From: Microcoleus sp.
GTDB lineage: Bacteria; Cyanobacteriota; Cyanobacteriia; Cyanobacteriales; Microcoleaceae
Assembly (NCBI GenBank): GCA_042408215.1
Contig: JAYFMW010000020.1
Span: forward strand, 64,001-128,000
Direction of reading: 5' to 3'
Length of the DNA stretch: 64,000 bases
Shown: piece after piece, positions 732-60,040 of the stretch
How positions within the stretch are numbered: position 1 is the stretch's first letter
How the letters are laid out: each line of letters begins with the position of its first letter
Program-made: the position numbers and the translations under genes
The notes under the pieces: generated by a model
Database searches by the model: none
What the model was told of the DNA's origin: nothing
Seen by the model: the letters and a program-made list of their open reading frames with translations, nothing else

Positions 732-2006
732 CTAAAATCCATAGGAATAACCATCCTTTTTGTGAATAGATTTGCAATATTTATGACTAATTCCCGCTAC
801 TCTTCCCGCCGTTGTGGCGATGTCGAACGAACCGGATGCGCGGCAAAGAATTCGTCCCACATAGGAGCCGACCTTCTTGCCTGCTGTGACGGTAGCGCTG
901 ACAATATCGCCGGTCTGAAAACCGAAATGGATTTGCTTTCTCGACTTGTGACGAATTGGGAAGCCAAACTTATCTGTGCCGCACATTTGTCGAGTACCGT
1001 GTCCTGCTGCCTTAATTAGCAGCGGTTGAGAAGTCAGCACTTTTAATTCTTCGACTTTGCCTACACAAGCAGCATCTAACCAGTGAGTTTTAGCTAAATT
1101 TAATCGAGTGCGGTTGAACTTTGTTAGACCACCACTGCCTGTAGAAACAAGCAAGCCAGTCATACGAAGTCGGTTAAATAACGCCCAGCGAGTTGAATTG
1201 ACTGCTGCTGCGTCTTTTAAAGACCGCTTTGCTTGAGATAGAATTCGCTTCAAAATTTCTGGCTTTTTGGAGAGGAATTGCTCAATATCTTGAGTTCCCT
1301 TCCGAGTATTACAATTTTCGCAAGCAAGGCAAAGATTAGAAATACGATTAGATCCGCCTTTGGCTTTGGGATGAATGTGTTCGACTTGTAGCGGTGTATC
1401 CGTAACTCCACAATACGCGCACTTCCTATCCCATTTATTCAACAAGTATTCGCGGATTTCGTAACCACATAAAACGCCTTGCTGGTACTCCAGTCCACTA
1501 ATTTCTGGATTTTCTCGTCGTTGTAAGTCGAATCGCACAAGTTCTTGAGCAATAGAACTAATGGGAGCGACTTTCATTAATCTAGTTACCCATGTCAGGA
1601 TTGTTTCGACACGATGTTGCAAGCTTGGAGCCAGCCATCCTTTAGGGCAAGTTCTATTTAGAAATCTAGCCTTTCGATAACGAGTATGGCGATTTCTCCT
1701 GCCTCTACGCAGTGAACGGCGAGACTCCAAACAGGCTTTAATTGATTGACCTCGGTGAGTTAGTTCTGCACCAAAGATTACGTTTTCTCCTTCGACTAAT
1801 GCAATGCCCGTGGTTTGGGAGCCAGGATCTATTTTAAGAGTGATGGGTTGTTGGGATACCGTTACCTCTACTTTGAGAATTAGCGTGAATGGATACCTTT
1901 TGAAAACAGCAGCTTTGCCAGTGGTTAGCAATTTACGAGCCATTCCTGGGCGGATTGGATTGAGCGGTCGTTTTTGGGTATCAAGTACAAAAACGAAATT
2001 AGACAT
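732..2006 (-). CDS. iscB: RNA-guided endonuclease IscB (RRXRR/HNH), about 424 aa
   Basis: PLNP (PLMP domain), RuvC-I IDPG, Arg-rich bridge helix RRSLRRGRRNR, HNH CAYC...EHIHPKAKGGSNRISNL..ACENCN, RuvC-III HWLDA. ATG at 2006 is preceded by GGAGG. Confidence 0.95.
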   Translation of the reverse strand: MSNFVFVLDTQKRPLNPIRPGMARKLLTTGKAAVFKRYPFTLILKVEVTVSQQPITLKIDPGSQTTGIALVEGENVIFGAELTHRGQSIKACLESRRSLRRGRRNRHTRYRKARFLNRTCPKGWLAPSLQHRVETILTWVTRLMKVAPISSIAQELVRFDLQRRENPEISGLEYQQGVLCGYEIREYLLNKWDRKCAYCGVTDTPLQVEHIHPKAKGGSNRISNLCLACENCNTRKGTQDIEQFLSKKPEILKRILSQAKRSLKDAAAVNSTRWALFNRLRMTGLLVSTGSGGLTKFNRTRLNLAKTHWLDAACVGKVEELKVLTSQPLLIKAAGHGTRQMCGTDKFGFPIRHKSRKQIHFGFQTGDIVSATVTAGKKVGSYVGRILCRASGSFDIATTAGRVAGISHKYCKSIHKKDGYSYGF

Positions 2007-2019
2007 AAAGTCCTCCATT

Positions 2020-2326: not shown

Positions 2327-3979
2327 TTGACTACTCAGATTCCTCAGAACTTTGTGCAAACGATCGCCAAAGAGCGCGCAGTCACAGATGCCGAGTTAGA
2401 AACTGTGTTTATGGCTCTCGACGGTCAAACTACGGCGAAAATCGCAACCAAGCTTGGGATTAGCGATATTGCGGTTCGCAAAAGACTCGGCGAGGTTTAC
2501 AAAAAATTTCAGATTGGGGGGAACGGTCCTGGAAAGTTGTCGGAATTGAGACATCAGTTACTGTTTTTATACCAAACCGAGTCGGGAGCGAGGGATTTTA
2601 TTCCCAGAGGTAGAGGAGTTTTATCCAAGATTGCGATCCTCTCCGAGGGCTTCGCTAACGGACACCGACAACAAGATTGGGGCGAAGCACCAGATGTTTC
2701 GGTTTTTTACGGACGGAATGAAGAATTAACTACTTTAAAACAGTGGATTGTATCAGATAATTGTCGGTTGGTGGCGCTACTGGGTTTGGCTGGCTGCGGC
2801 AAAACAACTCTCGCGGTGCAATTGGCCTCACAGATCAAGCATGAGTTTGATTTTGTGATTTGGCGCTCTTTGCGATCGACACCTTCTGCACAAGACTTTT
2901 TAACTAACTTAATTCAAGTTTTTTCCAACCAACAAAAACCCGATTTGCCGCTCGACCTCAACGGCAAAATATCCCGGCTGGTTGAGTATCTGCGTTTTTC
3001 CCGCTGTCTGCTGATTTTCGACGATTTTGAAGCAATTTTGCAGCCATCAGAGTTAGCGGGACACTACCGCGAAGGCTACGAGGGATATAGAGAGTTAATC
3101 CTGCGGCTCGCCGAGGTAAATCACCATAGCTGTTTGGTCCTAGTTAGTTCGGAAGAACCGACAGAATTGGCTTTGCTAACCGCCGAAAAAGTGCGCTGTT
3201 TAAAACCTGCTATTTCCCCGGAAATTGCGCGGTATATTTTCCAAGAAAAAGGTTTATCAGCTAAAGATAAAGATTGGAAAATATTGATGGCGCGGTACGG
3301 AGGAAATCTGTTAGCGTTGAAAATTGTGGCGGCAACGATTCACGATTTTTTCGAGGATAATGTCTTTAAGTTTTTGGAAGCAACGGCATTATTTATTGAT
3401 GAACGCATCAGTAATTTGCTCGCGCAGGAGTTCGATCGAATGTCGAGTGCGGAAACCGATATTGCCTACTGGTTGGCGATTGCTCAAAGTCCGATTTCCC
3501 TGGCGAAGTTGCGAGAGGATATGTTCATCAAGTCGTCGCTTTCAGATTTGCTAAAAAATCTGGATTCTTTAGGTCGTCGGTCGCTGATTGAAAAAATCCA
3601 GCCCGGGGAAACTGTTTTTATGCTTCAGCCTTTGATGGTGAAATATGTTAGCGACAGATTAGTATATCAGATTATATCTGAGGTTTTGGAGGCGATTAAT
3701 ACCCAAGGAATCGAAAAAATGCAGTTGTTGAAGACTCACAATTTTAGCACAAGTATTGCTAAAGGAAAACAAAGTAAAGAGCGTCGAAGTAATTCTATTT
3801 TAGAATTAGTTAAAAATCGCCTGCAAGTGTTGTTTCTCAAAACTACAGGTTTTGAAGAACCGCTAAATATCCTGACGAAAGTTGCCTCTGATATGGAGCA
3901 TAAATCGACCCTAGAGGTGGGATATGCTAGGGAAAATCTGGCGCAGATTATTGCCGAATTGACAAGTTATTGTAAGTAA
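2327..3979 (+). CDS. HTH + NB-ARC (STAND NTPase) protein without C-terminal WD40/TPR repeats
   Basis: N-terminal HTH (IATKLGISDIAVRKRLGEVY), DWGEAPDVSVFYGR, Walker A GLAGCGKTT, Walker B LLIFDDFE, GNLLALKI (GLPL-like). TTG start uncertain. Confidence 0.85.
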   Translation: MTTQIPQNFVQTIAKERAVTDAELETVFMALDGQTTAKIATKLGISDIAVRKRLGEVYKKFQIGGNGPGKLSELRHQLLFLYQTESGARDFIPRGRGVLSKIAILSEGFANGHRQQDWGEAPDVSVFYGRNEELTTLKQWIVSDNCRLVALLGLAGCGKTTLAVQLASQIKHEFDFVIWRSLRSTPSAQDFLTNLIQVFSNQQKPDLPLDLNGKISRLVEYLRFSRCLLIFDDFEAILQPSELAGHYREGYEGYRELILRLAEVNHHSCLVLVSSEEPTELALLTAEKVRCLKPAISPEIARYIFQEKGLSAKDKDWKILMARYGGNLLALKIVAATIHDFFEDNVFKFLEATALFIDERISNLLAQEFDRMSSAETDIAYWLAIAQSPISLAKLREDMFIKSSLSDLLKNLDSLGRRSLIEKIQPGETVFMLQPLMVKYVSDRLVYQIISEVLEAINTQGIEKMQLLKTHNFSTSIAKGKQSKERRSNSILELVKNRLQVLFLKTTGFEEPLNILTKVASDMEHKSTLEVGYARENLAQIIAELTSYCK

Positions 3980-4105: not shown

Positions 4106-5836
4106 TTATTTGAAAATGCCCAAAACTGATGCAGATTCAGACCCTGTAATTTTACCCAAAGCAGGCGCTCTTTGAGCCTGTGCAATTTGGGGAACCAAAA
4201 TTCCCTTCGCATAAATCCGAGGATTTTCCTGAGCAATTTGGATGTAAGATTGCCGGACTTCTGCGTTCACTGCGACAGTCTTTGCATCATAAACTTGCAT
4301 CGCCATCTTAGGATAGAAACCAATACCAACAATCGGTATCAAAAAGCAAAATGCGATCGCCACTTCGCGAGGTTGAGCATCGATAAACTTGGCATCCCCC
4401 GGCAAAACGCAACTATTACCGAAACAAACCGCTTCATCCAGATTATTTCTCTGATTCTGCAAATCTAAATCCTCGATGTCACAAGCCGCTGCGGCTCCAG
4501 AATTATAAAATAGCTGGCGCAGCATCGAGAGCAAATAAATCGGTGTCAAAATCACTCCAACCGCCGCCAGAAACACAATCACAGCGCGGAAAGAATCGCT
4601 GTAGATATCGCTAGTTGCCACACCCACAAATATGGAGAGTTCGCTAGCAAAACCACTCATACCAGGAAGTGCTAAGGAAGCCAGAGCGCCCGCCGTAAAC
4701 AAGGCAAACACTTTGGGCATAACTGTACCAATCTCGCCCATTTCATCCATAACCATTGTATGGGTGCGATCGTAAGTAACGCCAGCCAGAAAGAACAAAA
4801 CTGAGGCGATTAAACCGTGAGAAATCATTTGCAACAGAGCACCGTTGATTCCTAAGTCATTGAAAGAAGCAATACCGAGGAGCACGAATCCCATGTGAGA
4901 AATCGACGAATTCGCTAGGCGGCGCTTCATGTTCGTTTGGCCAAAGGAATTCAGCGCACCATAGATAATATTGACCACGCCGAGCACCACCATAATCGGT
5001 GCAAAGTAAACGTGTGCTTTGGGAAGAAGTTCCAAATTCAGACGAATCAAGCCGTATCCGCCCATTTTTAACAGCACACCGGCCAGAATCATCGACACGG
5101 GAGAAGATGCTTCGCCGTGCGCGTCAGGGAGCCAAGTGTGAAAGGGGAAAATAGCCAGTTTCACGCCGAAAGCAACCAGCAATCCTGCATAAAGCAGTAA
5201 TTCTAAACCCAGCGGGTAGTCTTTCAAGCCTAGTTCCACCATGTCGAAGGTGGGAGTACCTCCGCCGTAGAATGCCATTGCTAAAGCTGCGATTAAAATG
5301 AAAATTGAAGCGCCTGCGGTATAAATCAAGAATTTGGTAGCTGCGTAGCGGCGGTTTTGGCCGCCCCAAATCGAGATTAGCAGGTAAACCGGAATTAGTT
5401 CTAGTTCCCAGACAATGAACAGTAGCATGATGTCTTGGGCGACGAAGACTCCTATCTGTGCGGAGTACATCACCAGCATCAGGAAGTAGAAAAGTCGTGG
5501 TTTGCGATCGACTTCCCAGGCTGCAAAGATTGATAGCGTCGTCACCAATCCCGCCAACAGTACCAGCGGGACTGACAATCCGTCAACCGAAACAGACCAG
5601 TTGAGGCCTAAAGAAGGTATCCAGGGATATTGTTCTACGATTTGGAAAGTAGAGATGCTCGGATCGTAATGAGTCCAAAACACCCAGCACATTAATACAA
5701 AATCTGCAATTGCGACGCCTAGGGCATACCAGCGAATGGTTTTGCCATTTGTGTCAGGCAGAAAAGGGATGGCGACGGAAGCTACGAGGGGTAGTAGGAC
5801 AATCGCGGTCAGCCAAGGAAATTGATCCGCTATCAT
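4106..5836 (-). CDS. ndhD: NAD(P)H-quinone oxidoreductase subunit 4 (NdhD paralog)
   Basis: FPWLTAI N-terminus, [45 protein letters not shown]. Confidence 0.93.
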
Positions 5837-6101: not shown

Positions 6102-6848
6102 TCAATCCGGCAAATCTGGATCAACTCCCAATTCGCGCAACTTAGCCGCCAATCGTTCTGCTCTTTGGTGTTCCTGCTGTGCTCTGTGGCGTTCCTGCTG
6201 TGCTTGCTCGGAACTCCACAACAACAAATTACCTGAATTATCCCACCAACGCAGCCAGTTCATGGTTTGTCCCAACCGTTCCCCAAACCAAATCCCCAGA
6301 TACAGTTCCAGTTGTGGAATCCACACCCGCCCCTGCTCATTTGCTGAGTGTAGAACATATCGTCCATCTTGCAAATAACGGACTTCTAAACTTCTATCGT
6401 AGGGGTCATAAGTGACATAAGTAGGAACTTGAAGAATCTGTTCATAAAAGTAGAATTTGCCATAGGGGGGAGTTGCTCTGAGTGATAATTCTCCTCCCTC
6501 GGCTTCTGAGAGAAACTCCATCGCGATCGCCACATTAGCACCATCAGTATTAGGAGTATAACTACGGCGAATTACCCCTTCGGGTAGAGGATGCACTTGA
6601 GGCACATAAAACCAGTCTGGAGCTTTGACAACAGTGTTTTTATTAACAGTTGCAACTAGCCCTAAATTAGAAGCAATTAGCATTTCTGGCTGAATATACC
6701 CGGCGGCTCCGAGTGCATCAGTCAGAGCAGCCGCCAGAGCGGGTTGTTGAGTATTTTCCACAGGATCGTCGGGTAATACGAAGTTAGCGGGTAGGGGTTC
6801 CCAAGTGACGGTTGGTTTGGCTTTGATATAAGGGGCTTCGAGTACCAT
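6102..6848 (-). CDS. Uma2 (DUF820) family putative endonuclease
   Basis: LPDDPVEN, KAPDWFYVP, RRSY, MEFLS, WLRWWD..GNLL, coiled-coil tail ending LRELGVDPD. Confidence 0.9.
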   Translation of the reverse strand: MVLEAPYIKAKPTVTWEPLPANFVLPDDPVENTQQPALAAALTDALGAAGYIQPEMLIASNLGLVATVNKNTVVKAPDWFYVPQVHPLPEGVIRRSYTPNTDGANVAIAMEFLSEAEGGELSLRATPPYGKFYFYEQILQVPTYVTYDPYDRSLEVRYLQDGRYVLHSANEQGRVWIPQLELYLGIWFGERLGQTMNWLRWWDNSGNLLLWSSEQAQQERHRAQQEHQRAERLAAKLRELGVDPDLPD

Positions 6849-6925
6849 TTTATTAACCTTCAACCAGAAATGTTTGTGTAAATTTGTCTATCTTAACTCA
6901 AGTTGCTAGTTTCTGGATGGGGATG

Positions 6926-6984
6926 GGGCGGGTCGATCTGATTTGTCGGTGGGTAGCAAAGATTTCGGCGAACCCGCCCCTACA
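6926..6984. repeat. REP-like inverted pair GGGGCGGGT...AACCCGCCCCTAC
   Basis: Inverted repeat; related copies lie at about 53985-54240. Confidence 0.7.
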
Positions 6985-7128
6985 ATTATTGATCTTCTTC
7001 CTGGGAATTGTCACTGGGATTTAAAACCTTGCCTAACATATTACCAATTAAGGGTAATTGGGCGATCGCCATTTTCATTAATTCTCAGAAAGTTTCATAA
7101 TCAGCCATTAAGCCAAACACTTTTGACT

Positions 7129-10100
7129 TTAAATCGATTTGTCTTCTCTTGCTTGCTTGTGACGGAAATATTCGCGGATGGCGTTAATACCTTGTTCTGC
7201 AATTTCAATTGGGGGATCTTCGAGGGGGTTGTTCGTTAAATCAAGTGCGGATAAATTGGTGAGACGGGTGATAGATTCTGGTACGCTTGTCAGTCCGTTG
7301 TTCCATAAAGCAAGTTGGGATAAATTGGTGAGACGGGAAATAGTTTCTGGTACGCTTGTCAGTCCGTTGTTCCATAAAGCAAGTCTGGATAAATTGGTGA
7401 GACGGGTGATTGATTCTGGTACGCTTGTCAGTTCGTTGTCACTTAAATCAAGTGTGGATAAATTGGTGAGGCGGGTGATAGTTTCTGGTACGCTTGTCAG
7501 TCCGTTTCCACCTAGATTAAGATAGGATAAATTGGAGAGACGGGTGATAGATTCTGGTACGCTCGTCAGTTGGTTGTAACTTAAAGAAAGTGCGGATAAA
7601 TTGGTGAGACGGGTGATAGATTCTGGTACGCTCGTCAGTTTGTTGTTCGTTAAATCAAGTGCGGATAAATTGGTGAGACGGGCGATAGATTCTGGTACGC
7701 TCGTCAGTTTGTTGTTACTTAAATTAAGTCTGGATAAATTGGAGAGACGGGAGATAGATTCTGGTACGCTTGTCAGTTGGTTACTATCTAAATTAAGATC
7801 GGATAAATTGGTGAGACGGGTGATAGATTCTGGTACGCTCGTCAGTTTGTTGCCATATAAAGAAAGTGCGGATAAATTGGTGAGATGGGAGATAGATTCT
7901 GGTACGCTCGTCAGTTGGTTCCAACTTAAATCAAGTGTGGATAAATTGGTGAGACGGGAGATAGATTCGGGTACGCTCGTCAGTTTGTTGCCATATAAAT
8001 TAAGATAGGATAAATTGGTGATACGGGTGATAGATTCTGGTACGCTCGTCAGTTTGTTGTTCGTTAAATCAAGTGTGGATAAATTGGTGAGACGGGTGAT
8101 AGATTCTGGTACGCTTGTCAGTTTGTTGAAACTTAAATTCAACTTTTCCAACCATTCCAACTCAAACACCTCGGTCGGAATTTCGGTTAATGAATTACTC
8201 CTCAAATCTAATTCAGTGAGGCGTTGTTCCTTGACTCGTTGAATTAATCGGAAATATTTACGAATCGCGTTAATACCTTGTTTTGCAATTTCAATTGGGG
8301 GATCTTCGAGGGGGTTGCTACCTAAATCAAGTGTGGATAAATTGGTCAGACAGGTGATAGATTTTGGTACGCTCGTCAGTTGGTTGTTACTTAAATCAAG
8401 TTTGGATAAATTGGTGAGACGGGTGATAGATTCTGGTACGCTCGTCAGTTGGTTACTACCTAAATAAAGTTCGGATAAATTGGTGAGATGGGAGATAGAT
8501 TCTGGTACGCTCGTCAGTTGGTTCCAACTTAAATCAAGTGTGGATAAATTGGTGAGACGGGTGATAGATTCTGGTACGCTCGTCAGTTGGTTGTCATATA
8601 AAGAAAGTGCGGATAAGTTGGTGAGATGGGAGATAGATTCTGGTACGCTCGTCAGTTTGTTGTTACTTAAATAAAGTTCGGATAAATTGGTGAGACGAGA
8701 GATAGATTCTGGTACGCTCGTCAGTTGGTTGTTACTTAAATCAAGTTCGGATAAATTGGTGAGACGGGTGATAGATTCTGGTACGCTAGTCAGTTGGTTT
8801 TCAACTAAATAAAGTTCGGATAAATTGGTGAGATGGGAGATAGATTCTGGTACGCTCGTCAGTTGGTTGCCGCTTAAATCAAGATAGGATAAATTGGTGA
8901 GACGGGTGATAGATTCTGGTACGCTAGTCAGTTGGTTGCCACTTAAAAAAAGTATGGATAAATTGGAGAGACGGGTGATAGATTCTGGTAGGCTCGTCAG
9001 TTGGTTGTCACTTAAAGAAAGTGCGGATAAATTGGTGAGACGGGTGATAGATTCTGGTAGGCTCGTCAGTTGGTTGCGAGTTAAATCAAGACCGGATAAA
9101 TTGGTGAGACGGGTGATAGATTCTGGTACGCTCGTCAGTTGGTTGCGAGTTAAATCAAGATAGGATAAATTGGTGAGACGGGTGATAGATTCTGGTACGC
9201 TAGTCAGTTGGTTTTCAACTAAATAAAGTTCAGATAAATTGGAGAGACGGGTGATAGATTCTGGTACGCTCGTCAGTTGGTTGTTGCTTAAATTCAACTT
9301 TTCCAACCATTCCAACTCAAACACCTCGGTCGGAATTTCGGTTAATGAATTACCGCTCAAATCCAATTCAGTGAGGCGTTGTTCCTTGACTCCTTGAATT
9401 AATCGGAAATATTTACGAATCGCCTTAATACCTTGTTTTGCAATTTCAATTGGGGGATCTTCGAGGGGGTTGCTACCTAAATCAAGTTTGAATAAATTGG
9501 TGAGACGGGTGATAGATTTTGGTACGCTCGTCAGTTGGTTGTTACTTAAATCAAGTTTGGATAAATTGGTGAGACAGGTGATAGATTTTGGTACGCTCGT
9601 CAGTTGGTTGTTACTTAAATCAAGTTTGGATAAATTGGTGAGACGGGTGATAGATTCTGGTACGCTTGTCAGTTGGTTACTACCTAAAAAAAGTGTGGAT
9701 AAATTGGTGAGACGGGTGATAGATTCTGGTACGCTTGTCAGTCCGTTTTCGCTTAAATCAAGTGTGGATAAATTGGTGAGACGGGTGATAGATTCTGGTA
9801 CGCTTGTCAGTTGGTTACTACCTAAAAAAAGTGTGGATAAATTGGTGAGACGGGTGATAGATTCTGGTACGCTTGTCAGTTGGTTACTACCTAAAAAAAG
9901 TGTGGATAAATTGGTGAGACGGGTGATAGATTCTGGTACGCTTGTCAGTTGGTTGCCCATTAAATAAAGATAGGATAAATTGGTGAGACGGGTGATAGAT
10001 TCTGGTACGCTTGTCAGTTGGTTGCTACCTAAATCAAGTGTGGATAAATTGGTGAGACGGGTGATAGATTCTGGTACGCTCGTCAGTTGGTTGTTATATA

Positions 10101-10788
10101 AATAAAGTTCGGATAAATTGGAGAGACGGGTGATAGATTCTGGTACGCTCGTCAGTTGGTTGCCACTTAAATTAAGTTCGGATAAATTGGTGAGACGGGT
10201 GATAGATTCTGGTACGCTCGTCTGTTGGTTGCCACTTAAATTAAGTATGGATAAATTGGTGAGATGGGAGATAGATTCTGGTACGCTCGTCAGTTGGTTG
10301 CGACTTAAATTAAGTATGGATAAATTGGTGAGATGGGAGATAGATTCTGGTACGCTCGTCAGTTGGTTGTTCGTTAAAAAAAGTTTGGATAAATTGGTGA
10401 GATGGGAGATAGATTCTGGTACGCTCGTCAGTTGGTTGTCACTTAAAAAAAGTTCGTATAAATTGGTGAGACGGGAGATAGCTTCTGGTACGCTTGTCAG
10501 TTCGTTGTCACTTAAATCAAGTGTGGATAAATTGGTGAGACGGGTGATAGATTCTGGTACGCTTGTCAGTTGGTTGCTACCTAAATCAAGTGTGGATAAC
10601 TTGGTGAGACGGGTGATAGATTCTGGTACGCTCGTCAGTTGGTTGCCACTTAAATTCAACGTTTCCAACCATTCCAACTCAAACACCTCGGTCGGAATTT
10701 CGGTTAATGAATTATTCATCAAATCTAATGCAGTGAAGCGGTGTTGCTTGACTTGTTGAATTTTTTGGCGAATTTCGTCTGTCATCAT
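7129..10788 (-). CDS. Leucine-rich repeat protein, 1219 aa, three capped LRR modules, no catalytic domain seen
   Basis: 44 x 23-aa LTSVPESITRLTNLSxLxLxxNx units in blocks of 17, 14 and 13, separated by LEDPPIEIAKQG...LTEIPTEVFELEWLE cap/linkers. Confidence 0.95.
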   Translation of the reverse strand: MMTDEIRQKIQQVKQHRFTALDLMNNSLTEIPTEVFELEWLETLNLSGNQLTSVPESITRLTKLSTLDLGSNQLTSVPESITRLTNLSTLDLSDNELTSVPEAISRLTNLYELFLSDNQLTSVPESISHLTNLSKLFLTNNQLTSVPESISHLTNLSILNLSRNQLTSVPESISHLTNLSILNLSGNQQTSVPESITRLTNLSELNLSGNQLTSVPESITRLSNLSELYLYNNQLTSVPESITRLTNLSTLDLGSNQLTSVPESITRLTNLSYLYLMGNQLTSVPESITRLTNLSTLFLGSNQLTSVPESITRLTNLSTLFLGSNQLTSVPESITRLTNLSTLDLSENGLTSVPESITRLTNLSTLFLGSNQLTSVPESITRLTNLSKLDLSNNQLTSVPKSITCLTNLSKLDLSNNQLTSVPKSITRLTNLFKLDLGSNPLEDPPIEIAKQGIKAIRKYFRLIQGVKEQRLTELDLSGNSLTEIPTEVFELEWLEKLNLSNNQLTSVPESITRLSNLSELYLVENQLTSVPESITRLTNLSYLDLTRNQLTSVPESITRLTNLSGLDLTRNQLTSLPESITRLTNLSALSLSDNQLTSLPESITRLSNLSILFLSGNQLTSVPESITRLTNLSYLDLSGNQLTSVPESISHLTNLSELYLVENQLTSVPESITRLTNLSELDLSNNQLTSVPESISRLTNLSELYLSNNKLTSVPESISHLTNLSALSLYDNQLTSVPESITRLTNLSTLDLSWNQLTSVPESISHLTNLSELYLGSNQLTSVPESITRLTNLSKLDLSNNQLTSVPKSITCLTNLSTLDLGSNPLEDPPIEIAKQGINAIRKYFRLIQRVKEQRLTELDLRSNSLTEIPTEVFELEWLEKLNLSFNKLTSVPESITRLTNLSTLDLTNNKLTSVPESITRITNLSYLNLYGNKLTSVPESISRLTNLSTLDLSWNQLTSVPESISHLTNLSALSLYGNKLTSVPESITRLTNLSDLNLDSNQLTSVPESISRLSNLSRLNLSNNKLTSVPESIARLTNLSALDLTNNKLTSVPESITRLTNLSALSLSYNQLTSVPESITRLSNLSYLNLGGNGLTSVPETITRLTNLSTLDLSDNELTSVPESITRLTNLSRLALWNNGLTSVPETISRLTNLSQLALWNNGLTSVPESITRLTNLSALDLTNNPLEDPPIEIAEQGINAIREYFRHKQAREDKSI

Positions 10789-10891
10789 TTTTCTGTCCCC
10801 AAATATCTTTAAATATTACACTAAATGGTAAATATCACCGATCGAGCTAAGATTGATCTTAACCCGCCCATACCCGAACTCAGACCCCTCC

Positions 10892-11692
10892 ATGACACCC
10901 GATGTTTCCCCCGGAGCCACTTCCGCCCCCGCCCCTCAAACAACACCCGAAGTCAGCCTCGATATGCAAGTCCGTCTTAAAACAGAAGATGGACAGCTAC
11001 TGCTGCTACTCCCCTCAGAAACTAACACCAGTGAAACACCAACAGCGGCGGCTTCCACTTGGACTGAACTTTGGCAACAGCTAAAAGTTAGGCTAAATGC
11101 AGGAGAAAGGTTTTGGCAGCCCAATGCCGAAGTACAATTGATGGCGAGCGATCGCCTTTTAGATATTCGTCAACTGCAAGACATCGCCGAAGCCCTATCG
11201 GAAGTCGAACTTCAACTAAAACGAGTCCATACCAACCGCCGTCAAACAGCCGTTGCCGCAGCCACCGTCGGCTATTGTGTAGAACAGCAGCCTCCTGTTT
11301 CAACCCTCACTAAAGCCCCCGCAGCCAAACCGCAATCCCTCGCGGAACCTTTATATTTGCAGATGACAGTGCGATCGGGCGTAGAAATTCGCCATCCGGG
11401 CACCGTCGTACTTTTGGGAGATGTCAATCCTGGCGGCGCAGTCATCGCCGGAGGCGATATCCTGATTTGGGGCCGTTTGCGAGGCGTCGTTCATGCTGGT
11501 GCTGGCGGCAACACCAAAAGCGTGATTATGACCTTGCAGATGGAACCGATGATGATTAGGATTGCTAAATATGTTGCCAGAGGCCCAGAAACCCCGCCCG
11601 CTCAGTTTTTCCCGGAAGTCGCCTACGTGACACCTCAAGGGATTCGGATTGGCAGAGCTTCTGATTTTGACAAAACGCAGTTGATGGGTTAG
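10892..11692 (+). CDS. minC: Septum site-determining protein MinC
   Basis: TVRSGVEIRHPGTVVLLGDVNPGG...WGRLRGVVHAGAGG; lies upstream of minD and minE. Confidence 0.93.
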   Translation: MTPDVSPGATSAPAPQTTPEVSLDMQVRLKTEDGQLLLLLPSETNTSETPTAAASTWTELWQQLKVRLNAGERFWQPNAEVQLMASDRLLDIRQLQDIAEALSEVELQLKRVHTNRRQTAVAAATVGYCVEQQPPVSTLTKAPAAKPQSLAEPLYLQMTVRSGVEIRHPGTVVLLGDVNPGGAVIAGGDILIWGRLRGVVHAGAGGNTKSVIMTLQMEPMMIRIAKYVARGPETPPAQFFPEVAYVTPQGIRIGRASDFDKTQLMG

Positions 11693-14656: not shown

Positions 14657-16030
14657 ACCGCCGGGAAGTCCCCCGCTCTACCTGTACCCAGGTGAGCGGT
14701 GGGATGATAGGCCCGTCAACGTAGGTACGGAGTTGACCAAATCTTTTTTCAGTATTATGTAGTAATATATTCAGACCAGGAGGTGATCTTGAGTGCTACA
14801 TCAAGCTGTACAAGTCCGTCTGTATCCAACTGCATTGCAAGAAGCACTACTAGCCCAAACATTTGGATGTTCGCGTTGGTGGTGGAATTATGCCTTAAAT
14901 AAATCCATTCAGGTTTATCAAGATACGGGTAAAGGGCTGGGACAGGTAGCACTCAACGCCCTACTACCTAAGCTCAAAAAAGCCGAAGATACGCTGTGGT
15001 TAGCTAATTGTTACAGTCAAGTTTTACAAGCTACAACACTTAATTTAACCACTGCTTACAAAAACTTTTTTGAGCAACGTGCAGGTTTCCCTAAGTTTAA
15101 ATCTAAACATGGCAAACAGTCAATTCAATATCCTCAAAACGTCAAAATTGTTGATGGTAATGTCAAACTTCCTGGCAAGATTGGGATAGTCAAAGCCAAA
15201 ATACATAGACTAATTGAGGGGAAAATCAAGACTGTAACTATTAGTAAAACACCATCAGGCAAATATTTGGCATCTATCCTAACAGAAATTGAAGGGGAAA
15301 ATCAAAATGTTTCAGAAGGTAAGATTTACGGTATTGATTTAGGGTTAAAACACTTTGCTGTTGTCACTGATGGCGAAAATGTTTCTAAATACGATCATCC
15401 TAAACACCTTGCTAAACATGAGAAAAATCTCAAACGCAAACAGAAAAAATTAGCGCGTAAACACAAAGGGAGTAAATCCAGAAATAAATATCGTCAAGTT
15501 GTTGCCACATTGTACGAACGAGTTAGTAATTCCCGGCAAGATTTTCTACATAAACTTAGTCATAAGTTGGTCAGCGATAGCCAAGCTGTTATAGTAGAGA
15601 ATCTTAATGTCAAAGGCATGGTTCGTAATCATAAATTGGCGAAGGCAATATCTGATGCAGGATGGGGAACTTTCACAAATTTCTTGGCTTACAAACTAGA
15701 ACGAAAAGGCGCTAAGTTAGTTGAGATTGATAGATGGTTTCCCAGTTCCAAACTCTGTTCTAATTGTTTCTATCAAGTCAGTGAGATGCCATTAGATGTT
15801 CGTGAATGGACTTGTCCTAATTGTGGTACTGATCGTGACCGAGATGGAAACGCAGCTATCAATATTAGAGCAGAGGGGATCAGAATGCTAAAGACGGATG
15901 GTTCAGCCGTTTCTGCTGTAGGAGGGGATGTCAGACCCCATCTTGGGCGAAAGTCTAAGATGGGGCATTCGCCTGTGAGTACAGAAGCCGACACTGTACT
16001 TGGTACTCCAAGTCAGTGTGGGTAGTTCAC
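14657..16030 (+). mobile_element. IS200/IS605-family tnpB-only element (IS1341-like); left boundary approximate
   Basis: Left hairpin GAAG-TCCCCCGCTCTACCTG..CAGGTGAGCGGTGGGA at about 14665-14705; right end GAAGCCGACACTG...CAGTGTGGGTAGTTCAC (GAAG/TCAC pair). Confidence 0.8.
14793..16025 (+). CDS. tnpB: RNA-guided endonuclease TnpB, apparently intact
   Basis: VRLYPT HTH, FPKFKSK, RuvC GIDLG / IVENL / DRDGNAAIN, Zn finger CSNC..CPNC. GTG start preceded by AGGAGG. Confidence 0.95.
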   Translation: MLHQAVQVRLYPTALQEALLAQTFGCSRWWWNYALNKSIQVYQDTGKGLGQVALNALLPKLKKAEDTLWLANCYSQVLQATTLNLTTAYKNFFEQRAGFPKFKSKHGKQSIQYPQNVKIVDGNVKLPGKIGIVKAKIHRLIEGKIKTVTISKTPSGKYLASILTEIEGENQNVSEGKIYGIDLGLKHFAVVTDGENVSKYDHPKHLAKHEKNLKRKQKKLARKHKGSKSRNKYRQVVATLYERVSNSRQDFLHKLSHKLVSDSQAVIVENLNVKGMVRNHKLAKAISDAGWGTFTNFLAYKLERKGAKLVEIDRWFPSSKLCSNCFYQVSEMPLDVREWTCPNCGTDRDRDGNAAINIRAEGIRMLKTDGSAVSAVGGDVRPHLGRKSKMGHSPVSTEADTVLGTPSQCG

Positions 16031-17552: not shown

Positions 17553-18934
17553 TATTGTCCAGGACGTAAATTACCCAGACATTCTGGACTTTTTCCGACC
17601 CAGCTACGAGAACACATTTATAGTTGATTGACAAACCATAATACAAGCGTTAAACTGATATTAGCATTCGTTTTGACAGTTTATAAAATGCTGCTGGGTT
17701 TTAAAACCGAACTTAACCCCAACAATAAACAACGTACTTTGCTGGCTAAATCAGCAGGGGTAGCTAGATATGCTTACAATTGGGGTCTTCAAATTTTAAT
17801 TACCAGCTTAGAACATCATAAAACTCAACCAGAAAACCAAATTAAATTACCAACTGCCATAGATCTGAATAAGCGATTTACGGCTGAGGTAAAATCAGAA
17901 AACCCTTGGACTTATGAAGTGTCGAAAGGATGTCATAATTATGCTACCCGCCATGTTAGAGATGCTTTAAACAATTTCTTTAAACAACCAGAAAAGGGAT
18001 TTCCCAACTTCAAAAAGAAAGGATTTCACGATAGTTTTACTTGTGATGGTTCCACAATAGTCTGTTCTACTTGGGTAAAGATTCCTAATATTGGTAAGGT
18101 CAGAACTTTTGAAAAATTACCAGCTTTGGGAAAAGTTAAAAGTTTCACCATTAGTAAAAAAGCAGATAAGTGGTTTGTAAGTTTCAAGAGAGAAACACCG
18201 TCACAGCCAATGAGAGAACCAATCGAAGTTGTAGGTGTTGATCAGGGAATTAAATCACTAGCAACTTTAAGCAATGGTCAAGTTATCCCCAATATAAAAC
18301 CTCTGAAAGCGGCTCTAGGAAGACTTAGACAATTATCTCGGTCACTTAGTCGCCAGCAAAAAGGAACCGCATCTTATCAGGAAGCAAAGATTAAATTAGG
18401 ACGGTTTCATTCGCACGTTGCGAATATCAGAAAAGACTATCTGCACAAATTAACTACATGGCTGGCCAAAACTTTTGATGCGATCTGTATTGAAGATTTA
18501 AACGTTAAAGGGATGCTGAAAAACCCTAAATGAGCTTCGCGCTATAGCCGATTTAGGTTTGTTTGAATTCCGAAGACAGTTGGAATATAAATGCCAGTTG
18601 TATGGTTCACATTTAGTAATAGTTGACCGCTGGTATCCGTCTTCTAAATCATGTTCTAATTGTGGACATAAACAAGATTTGACTCTTGCTGATAGAGTAT
18701 ATAAGTGTGAAAACTGTGGTCATGTCCAAGATAGAGATGAAAATGCCGCCGTTAATTTAAAACACGAAGGTTTAAGAGTTTTAAAACTTTCCTTGTACAG
18801 CCCGTAGCTTACGGGCGATCGGCCTGTGGATGGGATCGGATTACTGACCGTGAGAAGCAGGAAGAAAACACTAAAACTATTTAATCTCCGGTTGGTCGGG
18901 GTTTATTTGGTTTTGGGTAAGTTTTTCAGAGCGG
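17553..18934 (+). mobile_element. Non-autonomous IS607-type element (tnpB only, no serine recombinase); left end approximate
   Basis: Right end GAAGCAGGAAG...GGGTAAGTTTTTCAGAGCGG as seen in IS607-like elements. TTACCCA and CCGACC motifs at the left recur inverted at the right. No IS605-type terminal hairpins. Confidence 0.6.
17688..18807 (+). pseudogene. tnpB: TnpB pseudogene (IS607-associated type)
   Basis: MLLGFKTEL.., GVDQGI, IEDLNV, then TGA at 18531-18533 plus a frame change; continues AIADLGLFEFRRQLEYK..CSNC..CENC..DRDENAA. Confidence 0.85.
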
Positions 18935-54652: not shown

Positions 54653-57600
54653 TTACAAGAAAGAGCTACTATTAAGAGCAGTTTGATTCACATTATAAAC
54701 CACTCCCAAGTAGTCATTCCCCGATTTAATCGCCGTTGAAGCTACAGCCGTCGCACCATCTAAGATGATATTAACTGACTCAAAAGTTAGTTGACTGAAA
54801 GTGGCACCAATCAACTTGATTTGATCGTCGGAAGTGAAGTCAGTAATCACATCAGCTCGATCGGGATTATTGGCGATATATTCTAAGACAAAGTTATCAT
54901 TCCCTGCGCCACCTGTGAGCAGATCGAAACCTCGATCGCCATTCAGGATATCATTGCCCGCGCCACCTAATAAGACATCATCTTGCTTACCACCGCGCAG
55001 GGTATCATTACCATCGCCACCAGTGAGACTATCATTGTCATTATTTCCAGTTAAAAAGTCGTTATCAATACCGCCATCGATCGAGTCGGAACCTTTGCCG
55101 CCAAATAGTTGATCGTCGCCACCTAAGCCTACCAAATAATCTTCTCCTTGATTACCAAAATAGGTATTTGGTAATTCTGAACCTGTTAAGGAGTCGTTAC
55201 CAGAAAGAGCAAATATGGTTAAACCTAATGCTTCTGGTGGGATGCTGGTATCTATGCTATCTGTTAGTAAGTAAACATCACCTAATAGGGTATTTTCTGG
55301 TAAACCCGATGGAATGTTACTTGATACCGATGGTTTTGGTATAGCGATCGCTATTTTTACATCTGTTGGCGTTGGCGTTGGCGTTGGCGTTGGCGTTGGC
55401 GTTGGCGTTGGTGTCGGTATTACCAATGGAATTGGTATCGGCTTCGGTGTTACAGATGTTGGTGTTACAGGCGTTGGTGTTACAGGTGTTGGTGTTACAG
55501 GTGTTGGTGTTACAGGTGTTGGTGTTACAGGTGTTGGTGTTACAGGTGTTGGTGTTACAGGTGTTGGTGTCAGTATGACTGGGGTATTAGCAGCAGTCAA
55601 AATTTGTCGATCTAACGCAGTACCTGTGTTTTCTGCAACTAGAGAATCAAGGGTTTTTTGACCGGCACCAAAGGCCTTAAAGTCTTGAGTTGTTTCACCT
55701 AAAGCAACTTTTTGAATTACTGCTACTTGTTTTTGCAGTTGTGTAGGATCGGTATTAGTAGCGATCGCCTCTACAATACGTTGATTAGATGCTGCTATTA
55801 CCTGCGCTATGGCGGGTGCGGCCACTAATACCTCTTGGGTGTTAAAATTAGGATCGATCGCCTTCACCCGATCTGCTACCTTTTCCACTAAGGCCGCTAC
55901 TTGTTCAGATTTGGTTAAATCTAATGATACTCCGGTTTGGATGACATCTGCGATCGCACTCACTATTTGCTTAACAGCATCACCCACAGAAATATTACTT
56001 GCGCCTTCAATTAATCCCGCAGTTTGAGCGATCAAGTTTTGGGTTTCAGTCATCGCGCTTAATACCGATTTACCACCGGGTTGTTCGCCTTTAGTCGCCG
56101 CGATCGGATCGACATAATTAATCGCGATATCGCTAGGAATACCAAAAGTGCTAGTGACTTTGCTATTAGCTTCATCAACAGTTAAACCGCGATCGACCAT
56201 TTCCGCCAAGATAGTAGTCAGTAAAGTAATTACTTGTCCATCTGGTGTCGCTTTTAGCGGAGTTTCTAGGGGTAAACCCGTACCGATATCGACCCCGCCA
56301 AAAGCGACTAAATTACCTTCACTGGGATCGAGTTTGCCATTACTATTAGTGTCAAAAGTGCTAAAATCAACATCAAAAGCAAATGCGCCTTTACTGTCAG
56401 TTATCCCTTTGGGTTCGTTCGGATCGATGATGCCATTTTTGTTAGCATCAAAGAAGACATTAGCACCGGCAATATAGTCGTCAATCACGAAACCCGTGCA
56501 GTTCCAGCCTACAAGATTCAATAACTCACTGACACTCTTGCCATTATTATCAGTACCTTTCACTTCTACCCATTGGGGTAAAGATAAATTACTTCCTGGT
56601 ACTTGACTGAGAGTGCGAGTAATGGGGTCAAATTTTAGGGAAGCATTAGGTCCGTCAAATATTTCTGGAATAGTAGTTACGGAAGCATTGTCTGTTTTCC
56701 GCTTGTATTGACCCCCATTTCCGCCTTGCGTCCAGATATAATCTTGTCCATAGTCAACAGAATTATTGTCTAGGGCGGTGACTGTATAGGTAATAGTATC
56801 GCCTGGATTTGGATCGATAAATGTGTCAGGCGCAAACTTAAAAGCGGTATTGCTAGAAAATCCACTAGCAGCACTTTGAGTCCATACTGGGTTATAGACG
56901 ATCGGCGCTTGATTGTTAAGAGTTGGTGTAGGCGTTGGAGTTGGAGTTGTTGGTGTTGGCTCTACAGGCGTTGGCGTTGGCGTTACGGGTGTTGGTGTTG
57001 GCGTTACGGGTGTTGGTGTTGGAGTTACGGGTGTTGGCGTTGGCGTTACGGGTGTTGGCGTTGGCGTTGGTGTTGGAGTTACGGGCGTTGGCGTGGGTGC
57101 AGGAATATTAACCACAATATTCCCTAAACTGCCAGCGGCCACAAAATTCCCTAATGTATTCTTAACTTCAGTACCTTGTAAATCTACTGTGTAAGTCCCA
57201 TTATCCGTATTATCCCAAGTTCCACCAGGCGGCGTAAATGAATAAGTTACAAGACGCGGTGTACCATTACTATTATCAACACTGACTTTTGTGACGGGAA
57301 TATTGCCATTAATTTTGATATCGCGATCGTCAATGGTAGTAACATCAATTCCCGTATTATCAGTATAATTTACGAACAATTGTTGAACTGTGTCGCCTGC
57401 TGTAGTAATATTACCAACTTGCGTTAAACCAGCAGTTGGTAACGTAACATCATAAGTCCGTGTGAGTTGAGTCGCCGCGGTATTATTATTACCCGCAGTA
57501 TCAGTTGCTTTAGCCGCCGGAATATCAACTGTGACATTACCATTCGCAGTGGGAGTCACATCAAAAGTGTAGGTTTTCGCATCAACTGTGACCAAGTTAC

Positions 57601-60040
57601 CGACAGCAGCATTGGCTACGGTGATATCAGTATTATCAAAGCCGATGACATTTTCATTAAAGGTAGCAGTGACGCTAAATAAACCGTTAACTGTTGCTGC
57701 TGAAGTGGATGTTAAAGTAACAGTTGGTGCAACGGTATCAATAACTATGGCTTTGCTACCGCCGAGGGAGTTAGCTGAGGCTAAGGCGGGAAGAGTTAAA
57801 ACAGCATCCACAGCCAAATTATCTTGAATTGTGCCGCCGTTAAGGGTGAGGGCAGTTGTGGTGAGGTATTCTAAGTCAGCAGATGTGTCTCCTGCTTGCA
57901 CTACATAGTTGAAAGTGAGTGCAGTACCGCCACTACCACTGGTATATGTGGCAAATTTGTCAGTTGTGCCTGTTTCTAATTGCAGTTGGGGTGTGCCACC
58001 TGTGGTATCTACGGTGACAGCAGCATCAAAGGTGACGGTGATGGCGATGGTGGAACCTACACCGTAGCTGCCGTCAGGGGTGGTGGCGGTGACAGCAGTA
58101 ACTTTGGGGATAGTACCATTGAGGAGGATGGAGGCTGTACTGTCGCTCATATTTGCCACAGCTAAGTCGGGTTTCCCGTCGCCGTTGATGTCCCCGATGC
58201 TGACGGATTGGGGCTGAGTGCCAGTTGTGAAGTCAACTTTGGGGGCGAAAGTGGGGGTAGCGGCGTTGGTGGCGGTGGTGTTCAGCAGGATGGAAGCGCT
58301 GTTGCTGCCTGCGTTCACCACAGCTAAGTCAGGTTTCCCGTCGCCGTTGATGTCCCCGATGCTGACGAATTTGGGGCTACTGCCAGTAGTGAAGTCTATA
58401 TTGGTGGCGAAAGTGGGGGTGGTGGCTCCGGTGGCGGTGGTGTTCAGCAGAATGGAAGCGCTATTTCTGATGGGGCTCGCCACAGCTAAGTCAGGTTTGC
58501 CGTCGCCGTTGATGTCCCCAATGCTGACGGAGTTGGGGATATCGCCAGTATTGAAGTCAACTTTGGGGGCGAAAGTGGGGGTGGCGGCTTGGTGGCGGTG
58601 GTGTTGAGCAGGATGGAGGCGCTGTTGCTGACGAGTTCGCCACAGCTAAGTCAGGTTTGCCGTCGCCGTTGATGTCCCCGATGCTGACGGATTGGGGGCT
58701 AGTGCCAGTTGTGAAGTCAACTTTGGTGGCGAAAGTGGGGGTGGTGGCTCCGGTGGCGGTGGTGTTCAGCAGAATGGAGGCGCTGTTGCTGCCGATGTTC
58801 GCCACAGCTAAGTCAGGTTTGCCGTCGCCGTTGATGTCCCCAATGCTGACGGAGTTGGGGATATCGCCAGTAGTGAAGTCAACTTTGGTGGCGAAAGTGG
58901 GGGTGGTGGCATTGGTGGCGGTGGTGTTCAGCAGGATGGAAGCGCTGATGCTGACGTTCGCCACAGCTAAGTCAGGTTTGCCGTCGCCGTTGATGTCCCC
59001 GATGCTGACGGAGTTGGGGCTAATGCCAGTAGGGAAGTCAACTTTGGTGGCGAAAGTGGGGGTGGTGGCGTTGGATGCGGTGGTGTTCAGCAGGATGGAG
59101 GCGGTGTCGCTGCTGCTGTTTGCCACAGCTAAGTCAGGTTTTCCGTCGCCGTTGAAGTCGCCGATACTGACGAAGTTGGGGGTAAGGCCAGTAGGGAAGT
59201 CAACCTTGGTGGCGAAAGTGGGAGTGGTGGCTCCGGTGGCTGTGGTGTTCAGCAGGATGGAGGCGCTGGTGCTGCCCTGGTTCGCCACTGCTAAGTCCGG
59301 TTTTCCGTCGCCGTTGATGTCGCCGATGCTGACGGAGTAGGGGTTACTGCCAGTTGCGAAGTCAACTTTGGGGGCGAAAGTGGGGGTGGTGGCGACCGTG
59401 GCGGTAGTGTTGAGCAGGATGGAGGCGGTGCTGCCGTAGTTCGCCACAGCTAAGTCCGGTTTGCCGTCGCCGTTGATGTCCCCGATGCTGACGGATTGGG
59501 GGTAGTGCCAGTTGTGAAGTCAACTTTAGGGGCGAAGCCTAGTACGCCACTGTAGGTTTTGAGGGCCTTGGCGTTAAATGGTACTGTTGCTTCTATCGGA
59601 CCTGTTTTTACTTCTAAGTTCCAGTCTCCTCCTAATTCAGCGCTGCCGGTGAGGTTAGCTGAGGCGGCGATGTCTGCACCAGTGATTTCACTTAGTCGCT
59701 TGAGGAAGTTTTGGCCGGTTTCTCCTGCGGCTACTTCGCATCCATATAATAGGATGTCGGCGTTTTGGGTGAGGGCTTTTCCCCACTGTTTTAGCTTGGT
59801 GTTAAAATTTTCTAGGTTATTACTATTGAGTGCTTCTGTGCCGAGTGTTACACTGCCTGGGCTGCCGTGAGAAAGGATATGAATTGCTTTAATATCTTTT
59901 TGATTAGCCAAGGCGTTAGTAATTTGTTCGATCGCGCTCAAATTTTCATTTAAAATGAAAATTTGAGCGCGATCGGCGTTATAAATTAGACTTTGATAGT
60001 CCTGTACAGAGGAGTCTACGAAAATTATTTGCTTTTTCAC
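54653..60040 (-). pseudogene. Large secreted protein: DUF4347 + 9 FG-GAP/VCBS repeats + Ig-like + PT repeats + RTX Ca-binding; three 1-bp deletions (real or assembly errors)
   Basis: IHILSHG..DILLYGC..GGDWNLE; IGDINGDGKPDLAVAN x9; TPTP tracts; GGxGND repeats. Frames join at about 59502, 58634 and 58590. Confidence 0.85.

What the first reader, a model, noticed from the sequence alone, without database searches (positions are those of the whole stretch)
7129..10788. Triple-solenoid LRR protein with a fixed 69-bp scaffold and hypervariable binding face: candidate variable receptor
Seen: 44 units of 69 bp in blocks of 17, 14 and 13, each with its own N-cap and C-cap (50+63+63+31+44x23 = 1219 aa). 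The DNA scaffold is nearly invariant even at synonymous sites. The x positions of xLxLxxN take many states (T/E/K/I/Y/A/G/R/D/Q; D/F/N/Y/S/A; GS/SD/TN/SR/YN/MG/VE/TR/SW/YG/WN). Identical variants recur at non-adjacent positions (ELYLVEN, TLDLSWN, TLDLSDNE). Known: these positions form the concave ligand-binding face of LRRs. Inference: unit shuffling or gene conversion generates recognition diversity, as in VLR- or TALE-like arrays, in a protein with no signal peptide and no enzyme domain. A role in phage or parasite sensing is possible.
Basis: partly seen in the sequence, partly recalled or inferred. Interest (0 to 1): 0.75.

Follow-up and report, generated by a model that had tools for sequence, protein, structure and literature searches.

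The report
Triple LRR relic of Roco receptor
A filamentous cyanobacterium carries the repeat-built binding part of an LRRK2-like receptor that has lost its GTPase switch, been tripled into one protein, and differs between close relatives by reshuffled repeats, so it likely works as a stand-alone variable binder, possibly a decoy for invader proteins.

Summary
In detail: one intact 1219-aa gene with 44 69-bp LRR units in blocks of 17/14/13, a near-fixed scaffold and variation concentrated at five codons per unit. It descends from an LRR-Roc-COR-membrane-tail (Roco/AP-GTPase) gene. A close relative (G005) has the full Roco at the same minC-ndhD site. In the window, about 1.5 kb of Roc-COR is deleted and a frameshifted tail relic follows the stop. 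A near-conspecific allele (L115, minC 98%) has 17/15/13 units; 77 of 82 codon differences are codons found elsewhere in this array (null 19), which points to recombination within the array. There are no donor cassettes and no DGR signature, so it is not a VLR-type programmed system. Core and cap residues are under purifying selection, and the triple allele has crossed between species (G011). The scaffold/face pattern is common in prokaryotic Roco LRRs (44 of 90 scored, query included) and this scan noted it before on other DNA. The new part is the effector-less, tripled, mobile form. Ligand, expression and defence role are untested; a slowly decaying relic remains possible.

The parts
7129..10788 (-). 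LRR-only gene, 1219 aa, three capped LRR solenoids in one chain, derived from a Roco gene
10669..10788 (-). N-cap of module 1 (aa 1-40), the same N-cap as the intact Roco relatives
9496..10668 (-). Module 1: 17 LRR units
9307..9495 (-). Junction 1 (63 aa): C-cap fused to a new N-cap; predicted linking helix 454-470, low confidence at 445-447
8341..9306 (-). Module 2: 14 LRR units
8152..8340 (-). Junction 2 (63 aa), 7 of 189 nt different from junction 1
7255..8151 (-). Module 3: 13 LRR units
7129..7254 (-). Final C-cap and stop; in Roco relatives the Roc domain follows directly
7099..7145 (-). Deletion scar: start of the Roco C-terminal tail joined to the C-cap after loss of about 1.5 kb of Roc-COR; one extra base here creates the stop
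   Evidence: (81% to G005 and L113 Roco DNA)
6957..7098 (-). Pseudogenised end of the Roco tail, after a second deletion of about 150 bp that removed the hydrophobic stretch
   Evidence: tblastn 78%, E 8e-14; 96.5% DNA identity to G005
6102..6863 (-). Uma2-family gene, a variable neighbour in the slot
10853..11692 (+). minC, divergent flank of the slot; its 5' end holds the inferred transfer breakpoint in G011
4106..5836 (-). NdhD-like subunit gene (name from the Pfam hit and recall), the other conserved flank

Best explanation
The gene is the LRR part of a cyanobacterial Roco (AP-GTPase) receptor that lost Roc-COR and its membrane tail by deletion and was tripled into one chain, and it likely acts as a stand-alone cytoplasmic binder that holds and blocks a variable foreign protein instead of signalling. 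Shown by sequence: (1) descent from LRR-Roc-COR-tail at the minC-ndhD site, with the scar still present; (2) whole-solenoid duplication giving three capped modules; (3) alleles that differ in unit number and in tracts built from codons already in the array; (4) amino-acid change concentrated at five face codons while core and caps are conserved; (5) near-identical triple alleles in two species whose flanking genes differ by 11-15%. Inferred: ordinary homologous recombination or slippage among near-identical units makes the variants and selection keeps them. Predicted: three solenoids on flexible helical links, each with its own concave face, which would give breadth or avidity. Inferred and untested: the ligand is a phage or other invader protein, and binding alone neutralises it.
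For: Roco at the same site in G005. Scar and relic. 77 of 82 codon differences to L115 exist elsewhere in the array against a matched null of 18.9 +/- 3.7; the reverse is 67 of 82 vs 21.4, G011 98 of 116 vs 26.0, the paralog pair 30 of 36 vs 6.2. 21 of the 82 are multi-nucleotide. Association between variable codons is mostly confined to near neighbours. L115 pairs show 50 nonsynonymous and 1 synonymous change at face codons, 22 and 9 in the scaffold. Core positions have 4 nonsynonymous vs 9 synonymous distinct variants over 144 units, ratio 0.18; cap pN/pS averages 0.17 over 21 non-independent pairs of 7 LRR-only genes. Intact frames in G000, L115, G011 and G047. G011 caps differ at 15 of 594 nt while minC/minD/minE/ndhD are 85-89% identical; the minC tree separates G011 from G000/L115 (100/100) and the cap tree joins L115 with G011 (96/90). 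Model: pLDDT 88, strands at unit positions 3-5. G000 has no COR match. The parent family is proposed as a counter-invader system with rapidly evolving LRRs (PMC8195603 section 15).
Against: No ligand, expression or phenotype data. The PADLOC scan gave only one weak hit with no passing stretch. The gene family matched in only 10 of 79 genus genomes. Several copies are broken (G000 paralog, G071, G065) and 104-115-aa single-unit forms exist. Face diversity may be inherited from the Roco ancestor: four Planktothrix agardhii Rocos show the same pattern. Non-core scaffold positions show a variant ratio near 1 (0.96). The null for donor codons does not model selection for allowed residues. L115 is a metagenome assembly and could be chimeric. 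Cap-based selection estimates rest on 111 nt and include time before Roc-COR loss for some pairs.
Confidence: 0.5

Rival explanations
1. A slowly decaying relic: after Roc-COR loss the stub has little function, and slippage and conversion keep reshuffling variants that were selected while it was a receptor.
For: Repeated Roc-COR loss by different routes (scar type, stop right after the C-cap in G000p/L116 and L119, internal deletion in G056). Broken and minimal copies. Patchy presence. At least half of Ectocarpus ROCO loci are disrupted (PMC3341825 section 14).
Against: Core ratio 0.18 and cap pN/pS 0.17; four long intact alleles; the same stop scar kept in species whose minC differs by 11-14%; growth to three modules and cross-species transfer.
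Confidence: 0.22
2. A sensor acting in trans: ligand binding is passed to a separate switch or effector protein encoded elsewhere, like a sensor-helper pair.
For: C-caps that would meet Roc are conserved and tripled. G011 and G047 have other Roc-COR genes. A repeat-less HTH-NB-ARC gene lies 3 kb away.
Against: G000 has no COR match and only one Roc fragment. The NB-ARC gene is also present in relatives with no LRR at the site (G072, G065).
Confidence: 0.14
3. A non-defence binder, for example for kin or symbiont discrimination or for a host protein.
For: Structurally closest by target TM-score are Leptospira LRR proteins (4u08, TMt 0.82), whose roles I recall as host-protein binding.
Against: No signal peptide; rapid change of the face between strains does not fit a fixed host partner.
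Confidence: 0.08
4. A reservoir of variable units that donates to intact Roco alleles at the same site in the population, or a programmed VLR/DGR-type diversifier.
For: Full Roco (G005) and LRR-only alleles share the site and flanks; alleles move between species.
Against: No intact Roco in G000; no cassettes outside the two genes (0 of 56 and 0 of 59 motif hits); 0 identical units between main gene and paralog; scaffold third-position A sites differ in 1 of 205 cells.
Confidence: 0.06

Closest known systems
Prokaryotic AP-GTPase/Roco (LRR-Roc-COR-effector) counter-invader proteins, Kaur et al. 2021, PMC8195603
   Same: Direct ancestor: same N-cap, unit and C-cap as Planktothrix agardhii Rocos (P0030 80% identity); rapidly evolving LRRs; the paper's supplement lists Planktothrix and Microcoleus members.
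   Different: Roc, COR and the C-terminal tail are gone, and three capped solenoids are fused.
Podospora HNWD/NWD NLRs and fungal high-internal-conservation repeats, PMC4986451
   Same: Works alike: near-identical repeats, shuffling, repeat-number polymorphism, selection at a few interface positions per repeat (passages).
   Different: Bacterial, LRR rather than WD/TPR/ANK, no NTPase or death effector; no identical units shared between the two paralogs here.
Ectocarpus ROCO LRR arrays, PMC3341825 and PMC11378527
   Same: Roco LRRs with shuffled units and selected sites on the concave face.
   Different: There each unit is an exon; here units are contiguous 69-bp repeats and the GTPase is lost.
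[quoted passage not shown]
   Same: Capped LRR solenoid with a variable concave face.
   Different: No incomplete germline gene or dispersed donor cassettes; variation is seen between strains, not shown within a clone.
Leptospira LRR proteins LIC11098, LIC10831, LIC12759
   Same: 23-residue LRR fold; best target-normalised structural matches listed (TMt 0.78-0.82; sequence hits).
   Different: Single solenoids of a pathogen; no evidence here of shared origin from a Roco deletion.

Membership tests
Roco / AP-GTPase proteins | Roc GTPase followed by COR | tested here: not met
   Pfam finds neither over cut-off; no COR-A in the genome; deletion scar
Roco / AP-GTPase proteins | N-terminal LRR solenoid with the family's N-cap and C-cap | tested here: met
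   Caps near-identical to G005, L113, L122 and P0030 Rocos
Roco / AP-GTPase proteins | C-terminal effector domain | tested here: not met
   Only a frameshifted, internally deleted relic of the tail remains
HNWD-type concertedly evolving repeat receptor (mode of evolution) | Repeats over about 85% internally identical | tested here: met
   Scaffold consensus identity 0.92
HNWD-type concertedly evolving repeat receptor (mode of evolution) | Repeat number and order polymorphism by shuffling | tested here: met
   17/14/13 vs 17/15/13 vs 15/14/13; donor-codon test
HNWD-type concertedly evolving repeat receptor (mode of evolution) | Positive selection at interface positions | tested here: inconclusive
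   pN > pS at face codons by counting; no recombination-aware codon model was run
HNWD-type concertedly evolving repeat receptor (mode of evolution) | NTPase and cell-death effector in the same chain | tested here: not met
VLR-type programmed assembly | Dispersed donor LRR cassettes and an incomplete germline gene | tested here: not met
   No scaffold or face motif hits outside the two genes
VLR-type programmed assembly | Cell-to-cell diversity within a clone | not testable with these tools
   Only contigs were served for the 8 runs laid
Diversity-generating retroelement target | Adenine-specific mutagenesis | tested here: not met
   Scaffold third-position A sites differ in 1 of 205 cells
Diversity-generating retroelement target | Template repeat and DGR reverse transcriptase | tested here: not met
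   No template copy; 4 RT hits, none on the gene's contig; one read and group II intron-like, the other three not read
TALE-like DNA-binding arrays | Helical 33-35-aa repeats with a two-residue base code (recalled) | tested here: not met
   23-aa beta-alpha LRR fold

The most novel reading that the evidence does not exclude
Microcoleaceae turn Roco receptors into effector-free, multivalent 'intracellular antibodies': LRR solenoids that are cut from their GTPase, chained together, re-diversified by intragenic recombination and traded between species, and that neutralise phage or other invader proteins by binding alone.
Probability: 0.3. Interest if true: 0.8.

Novelty: new variant of a known kind. 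Interest (0 to 1): 0.5.

Why it matters
Little is known of what bacterial Roco proteins do (PMC6337361 passage). A naturally switch-less, soluble version with several sequenced alleles lets the ligand question be tested directly: express it, pull down, swap units. If it protects by binding alone, it would be a bacterial variable-binder defence without an effector, and a natural library of LRR binders on one fixed scaffold. If it is a relic, it is a clear record of how such receptors are lost.

Tried and rejected
DGR mutagenesis and silent donor cassettes: rejected. Gross mis-assembly: unlikely given shared tracts and junctions, but whole-array order is unconfirmed. NCBIfam XopAE/XopAC/XopL scores over cut-off are sums of many LRR stretches covering only part of each model and were rejected as names. 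PADLOC gave no meaningful hit. The promoter scan listed no consensus site upstream of the gene on the minus strand. Fold search gave only generic LRRs. The cap tblastn used a wrong frame and was ignored. The cap tree (150 nt, 14 of 20 sources; 6 skipped for lacking one cap motif or the gene) is too weak to order the Roc-COR losses. No complex prediction was run, as there is no candidate partner. Eight paper searches showed no description of Roc-COR-less fused LRR genes in cyanobacteria; the library is incomplete.
Full report
Observation. The ORF at 7129-10788 (-) is intact and 1219 aa long. It has 44 full 69-bp units in blocks of 17, 14 and 13, separated by two 63-aa junctions. Variation is concentrated at unit positions 3, 5, 7, 8 and 10 (10, 6, 8, 8 and 4 residue states), with lesser variation at helix positions 19, 20 and 22. 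Scaffold third positions differ in 24 of 738 cells. The 44 units show 36 distinct five-residue face strings. Pfam finds only LRR families over cut-off. An AlphaFold model of residues 1-1200 (8-sequence alignment, pLDDT 88.1, pTM 0.46) gives three solenoids with strands at unit positions 3-5 and low-confidence helical links. That these positions form the concave binding face is established LRR knowledge, also stated in PMC3341825 section 23.

Host and site. The gene lies between minC and an NdhD-like gene in a 7.36-Mb, 30-contig genome. Named records with the same 33-nt scaffold are Oscillatoriales/Microcoleaceae, so the host is likely a Microcoleus-like filamentous cyanobacterium (inference). 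The DNA of module 3 matched in 10 of 79 genus genomes (only 5 candidates were scored per genome and repeats assemble poorly). Of the 30 minC loci fetched out of 77 hits, 6 had the LRR gene upstream, 19 an ADP-ribosylglycohydrolase gene, 3 neither and 2 were too short.

Origin. G005, whose minC is 96% identical, has LRR-Roc-COR plus a hydrophobic tail at this site, in a gapped assembly. Intact relatives L113, L122 and P0030 have the same layout (Pfam on L113). In the window the last C-cap joins the start of that tail (7099-7145), about 1.5 kb of Roc-COR is missing, one extra base creates the stop, about 150 bp more are missing, and the tail's end survives at 6957-7098. The same scar ends the LRR genes of L115, G011, G047, G071, G066, G059, G004 and L121. 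Other routes to the same result are seen in the paralog (stop right after the C-cap in G000:C11 and L116; internal deletion in G056) and in L119. G000 has no COR match and one Roc fragment, whereas 56 of 79 genus genomes match the G005 Roc-COR query. Module number at the site is one (G059, G004), two (G047; degraded in G066 and G071) or three (G000, L115, G011).

How it varies. L115 is near-conspecific (minC 98.0% over 661 nt) and has 17/15/13 units. Of 43 aligned unit pairs 20 are identical in DNA, with exact tracts up to 501 nt; the others differ in runs. Of 82 codon differences, 77 are codons present at the same unit position elsewhere in the G000 array, against 18.9 +/- 3.7 for a null matched by position and nucleotide distance; 21 are multi-nucleotide. 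The same holds for G011 (98 of 116 vs 26.0) and for the paralog pair (30 of 36 vs 6.2). 137 of 210 site pairs are incompatible with one tree, 5 of 28 among scaffold sites, and association between variable codons is mostly between near neighbours. This fits slippage and gene conversion inside the array. Caveats: the null ignores selection for allowed residues, the unit alignment may pair non-orthologous units, and L115 could be a mixed-strain assembly. Five L115 units absent from G000 are identical to G011 units, which supports them as real. Programmed routes fail: no donor copies outside the two genes, and synonymous adenines are fixed (1 of 205 cells).

Selection. Among 37 distinct units, face codons have pN 0.467 and pS 0.208; the scaffold has 0.041 and 0.069. 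Across four LRR-only alleles (144 units) core positions carry 4 nonsynonymous and 9 synonymous distinct variants (ratio 0.18), other scaffold positions 22 and 8 (ratio 0.96). These are counts, not a recombination-aware test. G011's caps and junctions differ from G000 at 15 of 594 nt while its minC, minD, minE and ndhD are 85-89% identical, and identity falls off inside the 5' part of minC and about 70 nt past the stop. Trees agree. The triple allele therefore moved between species by recombination at this site; direction is not established.

How general. Of the best 120 homologs, 89 had enough tandem units to score, plus the query. 48 of these 90 have scaffold identity of 0.85 or more, 44 of those have face identity of 0.6 or less, and 36 of the 44 carry a Roc-like P-loop motif (the ranking favours homogeneous arrays). 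Only the query had more than one C-cap motif, by a strict pattern, among the 90. Four P. agardhii Rocos are 98-99% identical after the LRRs but carry 10-14 differently ordered units. So the variable face is a property of the parent family. A search with the junction among shorter proteins gave 16 hits; the 9 that I read were single-module forms or fragments.

Literature. PMC8195603 (passages, all of section 15, keyword search of 12 of 13 supplement files) describes prokaryotic AP-GTPase+COR proteins with rapidly evolving LRRs as predicted counter-invader systems. I did not read its tables through, so LRR-only entries there may have been missed. PMC4986451 (passages) describes the same evolutionary mode in fungal NLRs. 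PMC3341825 (abstract, sections 14 and 23) and PMC11378527 (passages) describe it for brown-algal ROCOs. PMC6337361 (passages) says little is known of bacterial Roco function. PMC7159879 (passages) added only context. Eight searches showed no account of this switch-less fused form. Two earlier scan notes on other genomes report shuffling LRRs on intact cyanobacterial Rocos; I saw them after reaching that reading.

Mechanism and verdict. The structure and history are shown by sequence with high confidence. Function is inferred: a cytoplasmic, multivalent, variable binder without an output domain, most likely blocking a foreign protein by binding (0.5). Rivals are a decaying relic (0.22), a trans-acting sensor (0.14), a non-defence binder (0.08) and a unit reservoir or programmed system (0.06). 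It is not a Roco by definition, since Roc-COR is absent, and not a VLR, DGR target or TALE. It works like HNWD-type repeat receptors in how it varies. Class: new variant of a known kind; interest 0.5.

Noticed in passing
G000:C11:31723-33140 (L022) and L116:3556-4989: A paralogous single-module LRR gene. In G000 it is frameshifted near the last unit; the L116 allele is intact. Both have a stop where the Roc domain would begin. The G056 counterpart (L110) keeps the Roc start and tail but lacks the middle.
   Followed up: partly
G000:C6:591586-592518 and C8:27144-27506: A third, more distant LRR-only gene (311-aa frame) and an isolated Roc fragment beside a roughly 1.8-kb tandem repeat; this genome seems to have lost all its Roc-COR units.
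   Followed up: partly
window 2327-3979: HTH plus NB-ARC protein with no repeat domain found by Pfam; present in relatives with or without the LRR gene.
   Followed up: partly
loci L027-L054, upstream of minC: An ADP-ribosylglycohydrolase gene occupies the same site in 19 of 30 loci; in G059 and G004 it sits directly before a short LRR gene.
   Followed up: partly
proteins P0123-P0128: 104-115-aa forms with N-cap, one LRR unit and C-cap (could be real contractions or collapsed assemblies), and one LRR-Uma2 fusion (P0127).
   Followed up: no
L119:5143-7089: A long LRR-only gene at a different site, with a stop immediately after the C-cap: an apparently independent loss of Roc-COR.
   Followed up: partly
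window 58155-59536: Array of 162-bp repeats (8.6 copies) running across the ORF 54653-58483 and split frames 58557-59447 and 59450-60040; other short repeats at 55365-57099.
   Followed up: no
window 732-2018, 14793-16025, 17628-18533: An RRXRR-HNH (IscB-like) gene and two IS605 OrfB (TnpB-like) genes; IscB-like DNA also lies just downstream of the LRR gene in L115.
   Followed up: no
P0001 in NCBIfam: Scores over the cut-offs for XopAE, XopAC and XopL arise from summed LRR hits and could cause a false effector annotation.
   Followed up: yes
G000:C30:81834-83562: A frameshifted reverse transcriptase with a C-terminal HNH, group II intron-like.
   Followed up: no
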